From Escherichia phage cardinal, in the sequence record PQ567651.1: a stretch of 64,000 nucleotides of DNA. One strand, given 5' to 3'. The translations under genes and the position numbers were made by a program. The notes beneath the pieces were generated by a model that saw only the letters and a program-made list of their open reading frames with translations, was not told the origin of the DNA and searched no databases. This document shows, in pieces, positions 56,037 through 62,045 of this stretch; within the stretch, counting starts at the first letter, position 1; every line of letters begins with the position of its first letter.

Positions 56037-56399
56037 TTATTCGTAAATTTTACCGCTTTCTACCCATACCATAACGCGGCGCATATTATCCCATGCATCT
56101 TGTCGCAGATTTAAGGCATGCAATTCTTCGGTTGTGCTCATACCTGGTACGGGCTTGCTATATGTTACAAAGAGATCGCCAGCATATTCATAAGCCAGGG
56201 TAAGATCACATTGAATCATCTTTTTAAGCATAGCATTAAGCATCATATTAGCGGCATGTTGATCACGTTTTAGCGGTAGCGTTGCGATCTGTGAGCGATA
56301 GCTTTCGATCCGTGCATCCACTGCATCACGTGGAAGATTTTTCACGTCGTCGCGGAAAGATACCAGGTTTAACATGATAGTATTGATTTGCTTGCTCAT
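56037..56399 (-). CDS. hypothetical protein
   Basis: track ORF. Confidence 0.5.
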   Translation of the reverse strand: MSKQINTIMLNLVSFRDDVKNLPRDAVDARIESYRSQIATLPLKRDQHAANMMLNAMLKKMIQCDLTLAYEYAGDLFVTYSKPVPGMSTTEELHALNLRQDAWDNMRRVMVWVESGKIYE

Positions 56400-56424
56400 T
56401 GTGTTACCCTTTCTTTGATGGCCT

Positions 56425-56484
56425 GGCGGGAAACCATTTCCCGCCCTATGTGATACATCTTATCAGATTAAAAAACGTTGTCAA
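56425..56484 (-). promoter_or_regulatory. promoter + stem-loop cassette (PeSL-like), best consensus copy
   Basis: minus: TTGACA-16-TAAGAT-GTATCACATAG-GGCGGGAAATGGTTTCCCGCC, about 25 nt before ATG. Confidence 0.6.
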
Positions 56485-56503
56485 GAATATTTTTTAGATA
56501 ATT

Positions 56504-56785
56504 TTAACTATATGATCCACATTGTTCGCAGTAGTGATCATCGTCGCCATCAGCTACCTGGCTGATAAAGTGATCTACTTTTGCTTTTAGGTTATTATAA
56601 TTGTTTTCTACTTCCTTTAATCGCTCCTGATAGTAGCCCAGGGCTTTAATATACGCCGCCTCTTCTGTTTTTTCACGCATGGCTAAATTCATGCCGCGCG
56701 TATCATCATACAGCCAAAAGCCATCGGTACATTCACTCATTGAAAGGGTAGGGCTTAACTCTTTATGATTAATTACCTTGCTCAT
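56504..56785 (-). CDS. hypothetical protein
   Basis: track ORF, internal ATG start; C-terminal CEQCG. Confidence 0.45.
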   Translation of the reverse strand: MSKVINHKELSPTLSMSECTDGFWLYDDTRGMNLAMREKTEEAAYIKALGYYQERLKEVENNYNNLKAKVDHFISQVADGDDDHYCEQCGSYS

Positions 56786-56796
56786 AGTGTGCGCCT

Positions 56797-56901
56797 TATA
56801 GAATGATTGAAACAACAATTGCTACAGTGATCCACACTGGAACGGCTAACAAAATAGCGTTAATCGTTCCAACCGTCAAGCTGTTTTCTTTCTTGATCAT
56901 C
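56797..56901 (-). CDS. small membrane peptide
   Basis: 34 aa hydrophobic ORF with AAAAGG RBS. Confidence 0.3.
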
Positions 56902-57169
56902 GTTATCAACCTTTTATAAGTAATGTTATTGTGACGGTGGATTGTGGAGATCCTCACCTTTGCCCGTCCTGCATTGCGCCCTCCTTTTGTTTATTGTCGT
57001 TGTGCCTCGCCCCCCTCGACAAGATGAATAATACGCTACCAGGTGAGGAACGTCAACCCCTTTTTTAATCTTTTTTTCATTTCTTTTTTTTGCTTGCTAT
57101 CTATAAAGGAAAGGGCTATTATCTTTCTACCACGCCAACCAGGGCGCACATCAAAGAAAGGGCGATACC

Positions 57170-57436
57170 ATGACAAATACTACTTTACACCTCATGCACT
57201 CATTAGGCTGGCAAGGCGGCACGGTGCACCAGGTAGCAAGCGCAACGGGCTTAAAGGTTGAAACCGTTCTCAACCTGGGCGATCATAAGGTGGAAGAAAT
57301 AGATCATTTTGATACGTTCGCAAATGGTTATCTATGGGCTTGCAGTGGCGGCGGGGAAAGCAAGATCCCACCAGGGGCGCGGGGTGATATATATTTTTGG
57401 TTAGGTGTCCTATCCTGGCAAGAAAACAAAAAATAA
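57170..57436 (+). CDS. hypothetical protein
   Basis: track ORF. Confidence 0.5.
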   Translation: MTNTTLHLMHSLGWQGGTVHQVASATGLKVETVLNLGDHKVEEIDHFDTFANGYLWACSGGGESKIPPGARGDIYFWLGVLSWQENKK

Positions 57437-57438
57437 TA

Positions 57439-57467
57439 TTGACAAGCCCAGGGATCGGGCTTATACT
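57439..57467 (+). promoter_or_regulatory. sigma70-like promoter TTGACA-17-TATACT with palindromic spacer
   Basis: TTGACAagcccagggatcgggctTATACT. Confidence 0.5.
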
Positions 57468-57586
57468 GTTTTACATACAGAAGAGGAAGCGCCACCCCCA
57501 CGGCGTAAAGGCGGGGCTAACATACCAGGGCACTACTGGTTGGAAGGTTGATCGCTGGTACAACGTATTTACAAAGGAGGTTAGCA

Positions 57587-58180
57587 ATGAAAAAAGTTTT
57601 TGGAGTAGGCATTAACGATAGTGCAAAGCCGATCAAAGGTTGTCGATTCTATGCAACATGGCGCAACATGTTACAACGTTGTTATAGTGAATCATATCAG
57701 GACAAAAGGCCATCTTATAAAGGTTGTAGTGTTTGTGATGAATGGTTGACGTTTAGCACTTTTCGTGCTTGGATGGAACAGCAGGATCACCAGGGAAAAC
57801 AATTAGATAAAGATATAATAACACCGGGTAATAAACTCTATTGTCCTGATCGTTGCGTATTTGTAACGCAAGAAATGAATAGTTTGTTAACAGTTACAAA
57901 GAGTAACAAAGGGGATCATCCTTTGGGTGTTTCATTTTTGAATCATAAACCATTGCCGCGCCCTTATTTAGCAACAATACGTTATAATAACGTAGTGGAA
58001 AGATTAGGGTACTATGTAGATCCTTTATCCGCTCATTTGGCCTGGAATAGGCGCAAACGTGAAATAATCATAGAGATTATTAGTAATGAAACGGATTCAA
58101 GGATCGCCGCTGGCTTGGCTTTACGTGTTGACGCTCTCGATCTGGCTTATGAAAATAAAGCGGAAATAACTTGCTTATGA
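57587..58180 (+). CDS. putative homing-endonuclease-like DNA-binding protein
   Basis: ATG after AAGGAGG; N-terminal FYATWRNMLQRCYSESY...GCSVCDEW motif and AP2-like GVSF...RLGYY segment. Confidence 0.4.
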   Translation: MKKVFGVGINDSAKPIKGCRFYATWRNMLQRCYSESYQDKRPSYKGCSVCDEWLTFSTFRAWMEQQDHQGKQLDKDIITPGNKLYCPDRCVFVTQEMNSLLTVTKSNKGDHPLGVSFLNHKPLPRPYLATIRYNNVVERLGYYVDPLSAHLAWNRRKREIIIEIISNETDSRIAAGLALRVDALDLAYENKAEITCL

Positions 58181-58183
58181 CGC

Positions 58184-58212
58184 TTGACAAGCGCCCGACA
58201 AGGGCGCATAAT
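58184..58212 (+). promoter_or_regulatory. TTGACA + palindrome + CATAAT element at start of non-coding region
   Basis: cTTGACAagcgcccgacaagggcgCATAATc. Confidence 0.4.
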
Positions 58213-58436
58213 CTCTTACATAGACAGGAACGCCTACCAATGGCGCTAAACTTGGTGATGATAGCCGCAGGGCATCGACAGCTATAATCGCCGGTAGCTC
58301 GTCTAAAATAAATTTGTAAAGAAATGTAAAGATAAAAATAATCGCTTGCTTTTGTTGTTGGTTATGCTATTCTTATTGTATGGCGAGGGGACACGGGAGC
58401 GCGAGACAAACACCGCCCCTGCGCGTTATTTTCTAA

Positions 58437-58546
58437 ATGAGAAAATTCTCATTTGCTAATGATTCTCATTCTCTTACTGAGAATGATTATCACTTACATA
58501 ATTAAATGATAATGATTCTCATTTACAAATGAGAATGATTATCATA
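58437..58546. promoter_or_regulatory. cluster of Fur-box-like palindromes
   Basis: repeated aatgattctcatt / gagaatgattatcat units. Confidence 0.4.
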
Positions 58547-58569
58547 CGCATACCTATAAAAACACGAAA

Positions 58570-58766
58570 TTGAACTTTTCATTTTTGATTTTTCTACGGA
58601 AAAAGGCAAAAAAACTTTAAATAAACTGGGGAATTTTTAAAAAATTGAAGTTTTCATTTTCAAAATCTGGATAGAAATACGTACAAAAACTTTAAATAAT
58701 TTTGACCAAACTTGAACTTTTCATTTTCAAAATTTGTACCCAAAAATCTGTAAAAACTTTAAATAA
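58570..58766. repeat. 3 direct repeats of ~55-bp unit TTGAACttttcattttcaaaat...aaaaactttaaataa
   Basis: three similar units at about 70-bp period. Confidence 0.7.
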
Positions 58767-59082
58767 TTTTGTACTTTTTATAAAAATGATTTTACTGTTC
58801 TGTTATAAGTAGTAGTTAAGAGATAGTATGCCTTTTAAAGATCAGATACCATAGTCAAACAAACAAATTAAATACTTTATTAACAGAGTACAGAATAATA
58901 TTTACTCTGGATATATTATTCAGAGGGTGGATTTCCGTACATGAAACCCACACCCCTTTTTATAAAAATAAAAATTTTCAAAATATCAGTAAATATCAGA
59001 TTGTGCTTTTAGATAAACAGCAAGGTCTGTATGCCATTTTCCTAAAAGATTTTGTCCTTTCCAACAGTCCTTATTTTCCACA

Positions 59083-59538
59083 TCACGATCCCACATTCCC
59101 ATTTTTGATACCATAAATAGAATCATAAGGGCTTGCCTCTACGAACTCCTTATCTGCGTAAGCGATAAGTTTATTTTTGAGATCTTCATTTTGTGTGTAT
59201 TTAAGATACAAACCACGTTTGACAATCTTCTCCCGTAAAGAAGTCCAGGTATCTTCATCATAATCTTTAACTAATCTGCCTAGACGTTTATAATATGCTT
59301 GTTCTTTTTCTCCTGTATATCTTAGATCTCCGGTTAAAATAGAAGATGCAATATTGTAATCATAAAACAAACATGCTTTTCTCCACATCATATATTGTTC
59401 CACACAAGTAAATTCGACAGAACTTGTGATAGAATTATTATACTTGGGAGCTAAAGGTTCAATAAAAGATGATAGATACCAGTTGCTAAATTCATCTTTT
59501 GCCGAGAAAAAGAACACATACTTGTCAGTAATCCGCAT
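59083..59538 (-). CDS. NADAR (YbiA-like, DUF1768) domain protein; C-terminus apparently frameshifted
   Basis: FTCVEQYMMWRKACLF, RLGRLVKDYDEDTW, EFVEASPYDSIYGI match NADAR; conserved C-terminal WKGQNLLG lies in +1 frame. Confidence 0.6.
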   Translation of the reverse strand: MRITDKYVFFFSAKDEFSNWYLSSFIEPLAPKYNNSITSSVEFTCVEQYMMWRKACLFYDYNIASSILTGDLRYTGEKEQAYYKRLGRLVKDYDEDTWTSLREKIVKRGLYLKYTQNEDLKNKLIAYADKEFVEASPYDSIYGIKNGNVGS

Positions 59539-60936
59539 TTACACCTCCTTATTGTATACTAATTTGCCACCATATTGTGTAACAATTTTTTGAAGATTTT
59601 CCAAATCAGAAACACTTACTGTTTCTGTATGACCATCTTTCAACTCTCTTGCCGTTAAAATACCAGTTTTTAATTTTTTCTTTATAGCTCTTTCAGCAGC
59701 CTTACATTGTTTCACTGTGCTAAAATCATATAAACAAATACGCTCCATAGGAAACATATTACAGCTATTTTGACGTTTTAATCGACTATCACTATTTTTA
59801 GCTATACCAAACTTAAGAGCAACTATAATATTATCATCCTTAACAATATTAATATATAACTGCTGCTGACTATGACCAGCACACATAGGACAACCTCGAC
59901 CGTGGCTTAATAAGGCATTAGCCCTCCCTGTCTGTTCCCCATGCACAAGACAAAGATATTTAAACTTACCGTGACTTCTAGACGGTTTACCGATCCAACC
60001 TACCCAGACATACCCTTTCCCTTCTACTTCCTTTTTTACCCTGTAGGTAATCTGATTTTCTGTATAGTGATAACTAGTTGCACAGCGGCAAGGGATACTT
60101 CCTTGTTTTAGGGGCCACCCTTTAGAGTAAAATTTACCATCGCAAACACCTGCTTGAACATATTCATCATGGGAGCAAACAGGACACTCAACCATCCATA
60201 CTGCATCACGCTTGTTACGTTTCCCTGTATTGGTGAAGATAGTGCCTTCCTTAAATTTCCCTGTAGAAAAGAAATCTGCAATATGTTGATCGTCGGACAT
60301 TGTTAGTGCCTTCCTTGTATTCTCATACCTACATAAAGGACAACCATAACCACGTTTAAAATTGTTAATACTTGTAGTATCCCATTTATAACCACAGTGA
60401 CACAACAAATCAAGTTTTGTTTTATGTCCTTTCCATTTTCCAACGTACCCTAACACCTGATACCCCTTCTTCTGTGCTATCTCTTCCAAGATCGGTAATT
60501 CTGTTTCCCATGCTAACGGTTTATTACTTGCACATGCCGGACAACCACGTCCATTCCTAAAATCAATAATGTTTGTGGTGTTCCACTCTCCATGTTTAGG
60601 GCAAATTATGCGAATTTTTGTTCGCACACCTCGCCACTCCTCGGCAAGACCTATAAAAGTAAACCCTCTTTCTTTAGCAATATCAACAAGGGAGATACAT
60701 TCCTTTTCTTCTGTTACTTTTCTATGACCATTGCAATCGGAGCAACATTTACCGCCTTTAGTTTTAAATACATTGATTATGGTACTTTCCCACTCTCCAT
60801 GATCAGAGCAAGATAGCTTAAGCCTAGTCCTGCTACCTTTCCATTCACCAACATAACCCAAGATTTGAATATTGTGATTTTTAGCAAGGGGTATTAATTC
60901 TTCTTTATATTGTTCCCATGATTTTAGTGCTACCAT
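59539..60936 (-). CDS. protein with five N-terminal Cys-rich (zinc-ribbon-like) repeats and C-terminal T5orf172/GIY-YIG-like domain
   Basis: repeats of LGYVGEWKG..TKL.L.C..HGEW.TT.IN.F..G.GCP.C; C-terminal LYINIV...FGIAKNSDSRLKRQ. Confidence 0.5.
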   Translation of the reverse strand: MVALKSWEQYKEELIPLAKNHNIQILGYVGEWKGSRTRLKLSCSDHGEWESTIINVFKTKGGKCCSDCNGHRKVTEEKECISLVDIAKERGFTFIGLAEEWRGVRTKIRIICPKHGEWNTTNIIDFRNGRGCPACASNKPLAWETELPILEEIAQKKGYQVLGYVGKWKGHKTKLDLLCHCGYKWDTTSINNFKRGYGCPLCRYENTRKALTMSDDQHIADFFSTGKFKEGTIFTNTGKRNKRDAVWMVECPVCSHDEYVQAGVCDGKFYSKGWPLKQGSIPCRCATSYHYTENQITYRVKKEVEGKGYVWVGWIGKPSRSHGKFKYLCLVHGEQTGRANALLSHGRGCPMCAGHSQQQLYINIVKDDNIIVALKFGIAKNSDSRLKRQNSCNMFPMERICLYDFSTVKQCKAAERAIKKKLKTGILTARELKDGHTETVSVSDLENLQKIVTQYGGKLVYNKEV

Positions 60937-60973
60937 CTACTACTCCTTTTATTAAATCTGGCATCAATACAAG

Positions 60974-61000
60974 AAAACCCGCCGAAGCGGGTTTTTATTT
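60974..61000. terminator. terminator hairpin cccgc-cgaag-gcggg with A/T flanks
   Basis: caagaaaacccgccgaagcgggtttttattt; identical core at 35177. Confidence 0.6.
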
Positions 61001-61010
61001 GCTGGCTTAC

Positions 61011-62045
61011 TTAAAACACACTTGCCAAAGTTGCACCATTGGTGATAGTTGGTTCCAGAACAATACGGAAAGAATCTTCTGGATCATCACTAAACACAAC
61101 GATTTTACCGCCTGTAATAAGGTCTGCTTTCATTTTTGTCGCATTCAATGGAATTCGAGCATCTCCTTCATCATCAAAAACCACGTAAGAGCTATTAGCA
61201 AGGGCTTCTTTAGAGTCTGCATCACTTGGAGATGACAAGTACACGTCTAGTGTGCACGAACCACCTAAAAAGATTGCAGGTGTGAAGTTATGCCAACTAG
61301 ATACCCAGCTAACTTTCTGAAGTTTTCCATTAATAACAACGCTGCTGATATCCCATTTATTACCACCACCTAAAGAAACACCCATCATAGAGATGCATTC
61401 TTTAAAGGATAAATCAGGGTAGAAATTAAGTTCTTCTACTATACCTTGGATCACATCAAAGGACAACTCTAAACTTACATCCCAAAGTCTTTGGAAATTA
61501 TCAAAGTGTGCTTTGTTATCCAGGTTTTTATCTAAATAGTCAATCATAGTTTCTAGTGAGATTTTATCATAATTAAAATTATAAAACACACGACTAGGAC
61601 GATTTAAAAAGAATTCAGAGATAAAACCACTGTTTTTAGTCAGAATAAACAGTTTATTACCACTGCCAGTACCATCTAACAAAGTGAGAAGTGCTTCTTG
61701 ATCTTGTTTCTTCTCATACACTTTATCAAACTCGTCAAAAATAATCACTGCTTTGTCGGTGATCTTGCTAATAAGTTCAATGAAATTAGCATCGCTGTAG
61801 GCTTGAGTAACCATAATAGTTGGAATACCTTCTTCTACAAGGTCACGACTAATGAGTTTGGCTAACATAGTTTTACCACTGCCCTTAGTTCCTGTCAGGA
61901 GCAAACCTGTATTTTTACCTTGTGCACTCCGGCGATGGAATGTACGAATAACGTGATTTGCTCGTTTTTCTGTTTCACCATACAGAACATCCGGTACACC
62001 TGTTAGATTACCACGGCTTAAAAAAATAATTGCCAAGGGGATCAC
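61011..62045 (-). CDS. AAA+/P-loop ATPase; N-terminus may extend to ATG near 62140 through a frameshift at an A7/T7 run
   Basis: Walker A GTKGSGKTML, Walker B VIIFDEFD; GTG start lacks RBS while upstream ATG has AAGGGG RBS in +1 frame. Confidence 0.6.
   Translation of the reverse strand: MIPLAIIFLSRGNLTGVPDVLYGETEKRANHVIRTFHRRSAQGKNTGLLLTGTKGSGKTMLAKLISRDLVEEGIPTIMVTQAYSDANFIELISKITDKAVIIFDEFDKVYEKKQDQEALLTLLDGTGSGNKLFILTKNSGFISEFFLNRPSRVFYNFNYDKISLETMIDYLDKNLDNKAHFDNFQRLWDVSLELSFDVIQGIVEELNFYPDLSFKECISMMGVSLGGGNKWDISSVVINGKLQKVSWVSSWHNFTPAIFLGGSCTLDVYLSSPSDADSKEALANSSYVVFDDEGDARIPLNATKMKADLITGGKIVVFSDDPEDSFRIVLEPTITNGATLASVF

What the first reader, a model, noticed from the sequence alone, without database searches (positions are those of the whole stretch)
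59539..60936. Unusual architecture: five Cys-rich zinc-ribbon-like repeats fused to a T5orf172/GIY-YIG-like domain
The N-terminal 340 aa are built from five repeats of about 65 aa, each ending in a GCPxC motif; the C-terminus resembles the T5orf172 (GIY-YIG-related) domain. I do not recognise this combination. It could be a sequence-specific nuclease (homing endonuclease or anti-plasmid) or a DNA-binding regulator.
Basis: inference. Interest (0 to 1): 0.6.

Follow-up and report, generated by a model that had tools for sequence, protein, structure and literature searches.

The report
Phage zinc-finger-array T5orf172 endonuclease gene
This is an ordinary member of an already described class of phage selfish-nuclease genes: a string of five CapR-type zinc-finger DNA-binding modules tethered to a T5orf172 (GIY-YIG-like) cutting domain. 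The same gene sits at the same place in dozens of sequenced E. coli phages.

Summary
The ORF is real, but it lies on the minus strand (60936..59539, 465 aa). Pfam finds five CapR homology domains (PF21817, E=8.6e-50) and a C-terminal T5orf172 domain (PF10544). PHROG 681 "endonuclease" matches over the full length (E=1e-95).

The window is a Justusliebigvirus-type E. coli myophage. Orthologues sit between the same ATPase and NADAR genes in about 55 Justusliebigvirus records, annotated "endonuclease" in several. More diverged versions follow the ATPase in Phapecoctavirus.

I see the same here: relatives lack exactly one, two or three modules. A 207-nt deletion is bounded by a degenerate direct repeat. 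The gene is a local divergence hotspot (81-93% nt identity against 97-100% in the flanks; dN/dS 0.46 against 0.13).

Verdict: already known, low interest.

The parts
59539..60936 (-). Complete gene for a 465-aa CapR x5 + T5orf172 putative endonuclease (stop codon 59539-59541).
   Evidence: ORF list and translation. Pfam CapR E=8.6e-50 and T5orf172 E=1.1e-5. PHROG 681 'endonuclease' E=1.2e-95 over aa 1-463.
60724..60921 (-). Module R1 (aa 6-71). Canonical CapR-type zinc module, with knuckles C43xxH46 and C65xxC68.
   Evidence: Repeat HMM hit E=1.6e-33 (the HMM was built from these repeats). Cys map. The AF2 model shows a helix followed by three strands, but with low confidence here (pLDDT 36-65 at its C-terminal end).
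60526..60720 (-). Module R2 (aa 73-137). Canonical, with knuckles C112xxH115 and C132xxC135.
   Evidence: Repeat HMM E=2.8e-35. Cys map.
60605..60811 (-). A 207-nt (69-codon) segment spanning the R1/R2 junction. Most Justusliebigvirus relatives lack it, so one whole module is polymorphic.
   Evidence: Alignment with ECGD1 shows the gap at columns 242-448. It is bounded by direct repeat D1, 60558-60604 and 60765-60811, with a spacing of 207 nt. Protein homologues lack aa 43-112 exactly.
60322..60516 (-). Module R3 (aa 141-205). Canonical, with knuckles C179xC181 and C199xxC202. This is the best Pfam CapR match.
   Evidence: Pfam best stretch is aa 150-202. Repeat HMM E=1.9e-36. pLDDT is above 90.
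60070..60321 (-). Module R4 (aa 206-289). A diverged CapR module with knuckles C251xxC254 and C283xC285, the CxxC...CxC pattern of PLE CapR. It carries a 12-aa insertion.
   Evidence: hhalign of R4 against R5 gives 94.8% probability, E=5.5e-8. C251 and C285 are invariant; C254 and C283 are conserved in at least 90% of 62 homologues. The motif is described in PMC8096241.
59872..60069 (-). Module R5 (aa 290-355). Canonical, with knuckles C329xxH332 and C349xxC352. It is present in all homologues.
   Evidence: Repeat HMM E=1.4e-33. C329, C349 and C352 are invariant.
59542..59871 (-). T5orf172 (GIY-YIG superfamily) nuclease domain, aa 356-465. Conserved residues are Y361, K375, G377, R385, E415, D434 and E438.
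60943..60948 (-). Shine-Dalgarno sequence AAGGAG, 6 nt upstream of the ATG.
   Evidence: Read from the alignment (columns 104-119). It is conserved in PaulScherrer and ECGD1.
60974..60995 (-). Terminator-like GC-rich hairpin followed by a T run, lying between the upstream ATPase gene and this gene.
   Evidence: Terminator scan, 9 pairs. It is identical in the relatives. An equivalent terminator is annotated in phage Schickermooser.

Best explanation
The gene encodes a free-standing, site-specific DNA endonuclease of the T5orf172 family of putative homing endonucleases.

Proposed mechanism:
- Five CapR-type modules are strung like beads. Each is a helix plus a small sheet, pinned by one zinc ion held between two Cys/His knuckles. 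Together they bind an extended DNA site.
- The C-terminal T5orf172 domain has a GIY-YIG-like fold, with Y361, K375, R385 and E415 as the probable active-site residues. It cuts nearby DNA.
- In a mixed infection, cutting a related phage genome that lacks the protecting allele would trigger recombinational repair from the nuclease-carrying genome. That would spread the gene and its flanking markers.
- The number and sequence of the zinc modules change quickly by recombination between repeats, which retunes target specificity.

Shown here: the domain content, the predicted fold, conservation of the catalytic-type residues, the repeat-number polymorphism, and fast local divergence.

Inferred: zinc binding, DNA binding, cleavage and homing.
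For: - Domains: CapR x5 and T5orf172; full-length match to PHROG 681 'endonuclease'.
- Active site: Y361 and K375 are invariant, and G377, R385, E415 and E438 are each conserved in 61 of 62 homologues, down to 23% identity. E415 aligns with Odn E180, whose mutation to Ala abolishes cleavage in vitro and in vivo.
- DNA binding: the founding CapR protein binds DNA in EMSA, and this depends on its four cysteines (PMC8096241).
- Typical behaviour of homing endonuclease genes:
  - The gene has its own ribosome-binding site behind a terminator.
  - It is an identity trough, 81-93% nt against 97-100% in the flanks.
  - dN/dS is 0.46, against 0.13 and 0.18 for the two neighbours.
  - Homologues differ by exactly 1, 2 or 3 fewer modules, or by about one extra (82 aa).
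  - The 207-nt deletion is bounded by a direct repeat.
  - The gene is absent at the equivalent site in the more distant Klebsiella phage phi1_175008.
- The published description of this class matches point by point (PMC10448857).
Against: - No biochemical data exist for this protein or its close orthologues.
- The gene is present at the same locus in every Justusliebigvirus and Phapecoctavirus record I opened. So no closely related 'empty' target site was found, and ongoing homing is not demonstrated.
- The ribosome-binding site of the downstream NADAR gene lies inside the 3' end of this gene. That suggests long residence rather than recent insertion.
- The second Tyr of the classical YIG motif is replaced by Lys, and Pfam's GIY-YIG model itself does not hit.
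- The alignments to Odn and I-TevI are weak (hhalign E=3.5e-4 and 0.075).
- Modules R1-R2 are modelled with low confidence.
Confidence: 0.75

Rival explanations
1. It is a domesticated nuclease used by the phage as a weapon rather than a selfish homing element. It would be an Odn-like enzyme that cuts a satellite, plasmid, host site or competing phage, with the zinc-module array retuned in an arms race.
For: - ICP1 Odn is a T5orf172 nuclease co-opted against the PLE satellite.
- Phages of this same clade (Inny, Muut) carry RepA_N-T5orf172 proteins proposed to be anti-satellite nucleases.
- The gene is kept at one locus across two genera.
- The catalytic residues are conserved.
- The DNA-binding modules diverge quickly and vary in copy number.
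Against: - There is no RepA_N or other target-mimicking domain.
- There is no PADLOC match.
- No target is known.
- All the listed features are equally expected of a long-resident homing endonuclease.
Confidence: 0.13
2. It is a DNA-binding regulator that no longer cuts. It would act as a CapR-like repressor, or as an autorepressor in the manner of I-TevI, using the zinc modules to bind phage promoters.
For: - PLE CapR is a repressor derived from exactly this DNA-binding module.
- The authors of that work raise this possibility for the ICP1 homologues.
- The gene is fixed in the clade and embedded in an operon, with the NADAR ribosome-binding site inside its 3' end.
Against: - The nuclease domain is retained, with R385 and E415 conserved in 61 of 62 homologues and dN/dS of 0.38.
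- CapR itself has lost the nuclease domain.
- A pure regulator would not be expected to be the fastest-diverging gene of the region.
Confidence: 0.08
3. It is a decaying, non-functional remnant of a homing endonuclease that reached fixation.
For: - The ECGD1 orthologue carries a 1-nt deletion that splits the ORF.
- dN/dS is raised relative to the neighbours.
- No empty site was seen among close relatives.
Against: - The ORF here is intact at 465 aa.
- All ten zinc ligands and the catalytic-type residues are present.
- dN/dS is still well below 1 in every segment.
- Indels among relatives are whole modules and stay in frame.
Confidence: 0.04

Closest known systems
T5orf172-family putative homing endonucleases with CapR/DUF723/DUF4379 zinc-finger arrays (ICP1 Gp174, Gp165, Gp121, Gp53 and Gp130; Vibrio phage Helene; T5 Orf141-like). 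Described in PMC8096241 and PMC10448857.
   Same: - N-terminal CapR-type zinc modules, repeated in tandem.
- A C-terminal T5orf172 domain.
- In-frame loss or gain of whole modules by recombination between degenerate repeats (228 bp in ICP1 gp174, 207 bp here).
- Free-standing genes in large lytic phages.
- tblastn links this protein to the ICP1 genes at 32-33% identity.
   Different: - The host clade is different (Stephanstirmvirinae coliphages).
- There are five modules, four of which use CxxH/CxC...CxxC rather than the published CxxC...CxC order.
- The gene is fixed at one locus across two genera rather than patchily distributed.
PLE CapR (capsid-operon repressor of the Vibrio cholerae satellite PLE)
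   Same: It shares the zinc-finger DNA-binding module (Pfam PF21817 is named after it). Module R4 has the same CxxC...CxC signature.
   Different: CapR is a 15.5-kDa protein without a nuclease domain. It is encoded by a satellite and acts as a transcriptional repressor.
ICP1 Odn (Gp88), the origin-directed nuclease
   Same: It has a T5orf172 catalytic domain. Its catalytic E180 aligns with E415 here. Like this protein, it couples a modular DNA-binding domain to a nuclease.
   Different: Odn uses a RepA_N DNA-binding domain copied from its satellite target. It has no CapR modules and is 226 aa long.
Classical GIY-YIG homing endonucleases of T4 (I-TevI, SegA-G)
   Same: - A 'beads on a string' design, with a catalytic domain tethered to a modular DNA-binding region that includes a zinc finger.
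- Free-standing genes that drive marker conversion (established knowledge, not tested here).
   Different: - The domain order is reversed: I-TevI is catalytic at the N-terminus, this protein at the C-terminus.
- Lys replaces the second Tyr of the motif.
- The DNA-binding modules are different (NUMOD/helix-turn-helix there, CapR here).
- Pfam GIY-YIG does not hit.

Membership tests
T5orf172-family putative homing endonucleases with CapR-type zinc-finger DNA-binding region (PMC10448857) | T5orf172 (PF10544) or MUG113 domain at one terminus | tested here: met
   PF10544 scores 26.3 bits against a curated cutoff of 20, over aa 367-453. MUG113 also appears weakly.
T5orf172-family putative homing endonucleases with CapR-type zinc-finger DNA-binding region (PMC10448857) | At least one CapR, DUF723 or DUF4379 zinc-finger module at the other terminus | tested here: met
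   CapR PF21817 scores 167 bits in 5 stretches. DUF723 and DUF4379 give sub-threshold overlapping hits.
T5orf172-family putative homing endonucleases with CapR-type zinc-finger DNA-binding region (PMC10448857) | GIY-YIG-superfamily fold with conserved catalytic Arg and Glu | tested here: met
   [not shown]
T5orf172-family putative homing endonucleases with CapR-type zinc-finger DNA-binding region (PMC10448857) | Site-specific DNA cleavage | not testable with these tools
   This needs purified protein and cleavage assays. Within the family it has been shown only for Odn.
T5orf172-family putative homing endonucleases with CapR-type zinc-finger DNA-binding region (PMC10448857) | Mobility: presence/absence polymorphism at a cognate site among related genomes | tested here: inconclusive
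   The gene is present in all Justusliebigvirus and Phapecoctavirus loci I opened. It is absent after the ATPase in Klebsiella phage phi1_175008. The gene is an identity trough.
CapR repressors of PLE satellites | Small stand-alone CapR-domain protein without a nuclease domain, encoded by a satellite | tested here: not met
   This protein is 465 aa, carries a T5orf172 domain and lies in a phage genome.
Odn-like anti-satellite nucleases | RepA_N DNA-binding domain fused to T5orf172 | tested here: not met
   There is no RepA_N hit in Pfam at E<=1.
Classical GIY-YIG homing endonucleases (I-TevI/Seg) | Pfam GIY-YIG (PF01541) match with both motif tyrosines, and an N-terminal catalytic domain | tested here: not met
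   No PF01541 hit. K375 occupies the second-Tyr position. The catalytic domain is C-terminal.
HNH endonucleases (label of phrog_559) | HNH catalytic motif or domain | tested here: not met
   The phrog_559 match covers only the zinc modules, aa 19-137. There is no HNH Pfam hit.
Known anti-phage defence proteins (PADLOC) | Match to a PADLOC model | tested here: not met
   No family at E<=0.01.

The most novel reading that the evidence does not exclude
The array of CapR modules may be a genuinely modular DNA-recognition code tuned by copy number, with each module reading a few base pairs. On this reading, the different alleles kept at this one locus across Stephanstirmvirinae would be weapons that co-circulating phages aim at each other's versions of the locus. 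That would make it a fixed, diversifying inter-phage competition system rather than a simple selfish element. The idea of modular recognition has already been floated in PMC10448857. What would be new is demonstrating a code, or demonstrating allele-against-allele targeting.
Probability: 0.12. Interest if true: 0.5.

Novelty: already known. Interest (0 to 1): 0.12.

Why it matters
It matters little as a discovery. The architecture, its repeat dynamics and its likely role are published, and the gene is present and annotated in many deposited coliphage genomes.

It has modest practical value. This clade offers a natural series of alleles with two to six zinc modules on a constant R4-R5-nuclease core. 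That is convenient material for working out how CapR modules read DNA, and for testing whether T5orf172 enzymes with CapR arrays really home.

Tried and rejected
- **Plus-strand reading.** Reading the coordinates on the plus strand gives only stops. The gene is on the minus strand.
- **NCBIfam.** It gave nothing useful, only a sub-threshold YnfU zinc hit.
- **Sequence search of the PDB.** A search with the family profile found no relative.
- **Paralogues in the window.** tblastn found none, with no hit better than E=0.09.
- **Defence-system membership.** PADLOC gave no match.
- **RNA elements in or around the gene.** Rfam found none over 56300-61100, and there are no tRNAs in the window.
- **Catalytic glutamate.** I first assumed it was E438, in the DGxTET motif. 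Alignment to Odn showed that the tested residue, E180, corresponds to E415 instead. E438 is a second conserved acidic residue of unknown role.
- **Closely related empty site.** I looked for one in order to define a homing target. There was none among the loci opened; only the distant phage phi1_175008 lacks the gene.

Full report
**What is there**

The coordinates 59539-60936 hold one uninterrupted ORF on the minus strand. It starts with ATG at 60936, ends with TAA at 59539-59541 and encodes 465 aa. The plus-strand frame is full of stops. The ATG is preceded by AAGGAG at a 6-nt spacing. Further upstream lies a GC-rich hairpin with a T run (60995-60974) that follows the stop codon of the upstream ATPase gene. 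The stop codon abuts the ATG of the downstream NADAR/YbiA-like gene (TAAATG). That gene's ribosome-binding site lies inside the last codons of this gene.

**Domain content**

Pfam reports the CapR homology domain (PF21817) in five stretches: E=8.6e-50, 167 bits against a curated cutoff of 24.2. It also reports T5orf172 (PF10544) at aa 367-453, at 26.3 bits against a cutoff of 20. The related zinc-finger models DUF723 and DUF4379, and MUG113, give weak overlapping hits. PHROG 681, labelled "endonuclease", matches from aa 1 to 463 at E=1.2e-95. NCBIfam and PADLOC add nothing.

**The repeats**

An HMM built from the clear copies finds aa 6-71, 73-137, 141-205 and 290-355, each at E about 1e-33 to 1e-36. 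Since the HMM was built from these four repeats, those values show only mutual similarity. The independent support is the Pfam match.

The four canonical copies share the pattern helix, phi-phi-G-Y-V-G-x-W-K-G, T-K-phi-x-phi-x-C-x-x-H-G-x-W, then G-x-G-C-P-x-C. So a first knuckle (CxxH, or CxC in R3) is followed 16-18 residues later by CxxC.

The stretch between R3 and R5 (aa 206-289) looks different at first sight. It has CPVC first and PCRC 28 residues later. Profile-profile alignment nonetheless places it on the canonical module at 94.8% probability (E=5.5e-8), with the knuckles in register and a 12-aa insertion. This CxxC...CxC order is the one published for PLE CapR.

So there are five homologous modules and ten knuckles, which implies five zinc sites.

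**Predicted structure**

AlphaFold2 with a 62-sequence alignment gives mean pLDDT 85.9. Confidence is above 90 from about aa 140 to the end and low (36-70) across R1-R2. Each module is modelled as a long helix, then two strands ending at the first knuckle, a third strand, and a short helix at the second knuckle.

- Foldseek with the whole chain was uninformative.
- No solved structure matched the CapR module convincingly.
- A sequence-profile search of the PDB found nothing.

**Catalytic residues**

The 62 homologues go down to 23% identity.

- Y361, K375 and D434 are invariant.
- G377, R385, E415 and E438 are each conserved in 61 of 62.

I fetched ICP1 Odn (Gp88, YP_004251029.1). This is the one T5orf172 protein whose nuclease activity has been shown in vitro and in vivo, and it is abolished by E180A (PMC8263062). 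hhalign of the C-terminal sub-alignment against Odn (E=3.5e-4, 89 columns) aligns K375-x-G377 with Odn K138-x-G140, R385 with R148 and E415 with E180.

A short, weak alignment to the I-TevI catalytic domain puts R385 on R27.

**Genomic setting**

The window is a Justusliebigvirus-type (Stephanstirmvirinae) E. coli myophage. The 3-kb stretch holding NADAR, this gene and the ATPase matches 61 phage records by megablast, 55 of them at 90-99% identity. In those records the gene is annotated "endonuclease" or "hypothetical protein". UniRef calls the phage alia orthologue "CapR homology domain-containing protein".

The same order, ATPase then terminator then endonuclease, is found in Phapecoctavirus (Schickermooser and ZCKP1). 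There the protein is only about 35% identical, although the ATPase DNA is 72-74% identical. A more distant Stephanstirmvirinae member, Klebsiella phage phi1_175008, has no such gene after its ATPase.

By tblastn, 501 phage records hold relatives, often several per genome. These include the ICP1 genes annotated as putative homing endonucleases, and phage T5.

**Evolutionary behaviour**

Homologue lengths fall into classes of about 263, 328, 395, 465 and 562 aa. Pairwise alignment shows that these differ from the window protein as follows:

- deletions of exactly 69 aa (one module);
- deletions of 136-138 aa (two modules);
- deletions of 202 aa (three modules);
- an insertion of 82 aa (about one module).

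All changes fall in the N-terminal array. The R4-R5-T5orf172 core is constant.

At the DNA level, ECGD1 and most relatives lack window 60605-60811. That is 207 nt, it is in frame, and it fuses R1 to R2. The segment is bounded by the degenerate 47-nt direct repeat 60558-60604 / 60765-60811, whose spacing is 207 nt. Recombination between the repeats is the obvious cause.

Against PaulScherrer, nucleotide identity is 97-100% in the flanks but falls to 81-93% inside the gene, and is lowest over R4-R5. dN/dS is 0.46 for the gene, ranging from 0.33 to 0.72 for the modules and 0.38 for the nuclease domain. The ATPase gives 0.13 and NADAR 0.18. So the gene diverges fast but is still under purifying selection. 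ECGD1 additionally has a 1-nt deletion that splits its ORF.

**Comparison with what is known**

Netter et al. (PMC8096241) showed three things. PLE CapR is a zinc-finger DNA-binding repressor. Its closest relatives are the N-terminal regions of ICP1 proteins that carry a C-terminal T5orf172 domain. Those proteins are putative homing endonucleases.

The 2023 paper from the same laboratory (PMC10448857) surveyed 229 T5orf172 genes. It found CapR, DUF723 or DUF4379 zinc fingers in 87% of them. It noted that many carry several such domains as "beads on a string", with six repeats in phage Helene. It documented an in-frame 228-bp repeat deletion in ICP1 gp174. It also discussed E. coli phages Inny and Muut, which are relatives of this window, for their RepA_N-T5orf172 genes.

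Every feature seen here falls inside that description. The protein meets the sequence and fold criteria of the class. It is not a CapR repressor, because it has the nuclease. It is not Odn-like, because it has no RepA_N. It is not a classical GIY-YIG or HNH enzyme by Pfam criteria.

**Mechanism and confidence**

That this is a CapR-array plus T5orf172 protein is near certain. I put its being an active site-specific endonuclease at about 0.75. That rests on conserved catalytic residues, purifying selection and the Odn precedent.

Whether it still homes is open, because no closely related empty site was found and the gene looks fixed in two genera. The alternatives are an anti-satellite or anti-competitor weapon (0.13), a non-cutting regulator (0.08) or a decaying remnant (0.04).

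**Verdict**

The functional guess is reasonable. The claimed novelty of the architecture is not borne out. I rate it already known, interest about 0.12.

Noticed in passing
window 57561-58286 (ORF 57548-58180, + strand): A roughly 726-bp insertion is absent from PaulScherrer, ECGD1 and Schickermooser at the same junction. It carries a 210-aa ORF matching phrog_953 'HNH endonuclease' at E=4e-82, with no Pfam hit. This looks like a second, truly polymorphic free-standing homing-endonuclease-type gene only 1.4 kb from the finding.
   Followed up: partly
window 59083-59538 (- strand), frameshift near 59103-59107: The NADAR/YbiA-like gene (Pfam NADAR E=9e-30) is 151 aa here, against 183 aa in PaulScherrer. 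The window has one extra A in an A-run (AAAAA against AAAA). This shifts the frame, and the missing C-terminus reads on in ORF 58986-59126. It is either a sequencing error or a pseudogene. The protein also matches the PADLOC candidate PDC-M42C at E=4e-27.
   Followed up: partly
window 58190-58985: About 800 bp contain no ORF of 50 aa or more. The stretch holds three degenerate direct repeats of about 70-79 nt (58567-58787) and a near-perfect 19-nt palindrome (58506-58545). There are no Rfam or tRNA hits. It may be a regulatory or origin-like region.
   Followed up: no
window 61011-62045 (- strand): The upstream neighbour is an AAA+ ATPase (Pfam AAA E=1e-9; phrog_2376 E=2e-96). In relatives it is annotated variously as 'FtsH-like protease', 'ATPase or Zn metalloprotease' or 'GTP cyclohydrolase II'. 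No protease domain was detected here.
   Followed up: no
GenBank MG065689.1 and MG065639.1 (hits H87, H89): Records labelled 'Campylobacter phage A110a/A150' (host C. jejuni) carry this E. coli-phage locus at 91-94% nucleotide identity. The records may be mislabelled or contaminated.
   Followed up: no
L002 (Enterobacteria phage ECGD1) 1534-2705: The orthologous endonuclease gene is annotated as two overlapping ORFs. A 1-nt deletion is the cause, in addition to the one-module deletion.
   Followed up: partly
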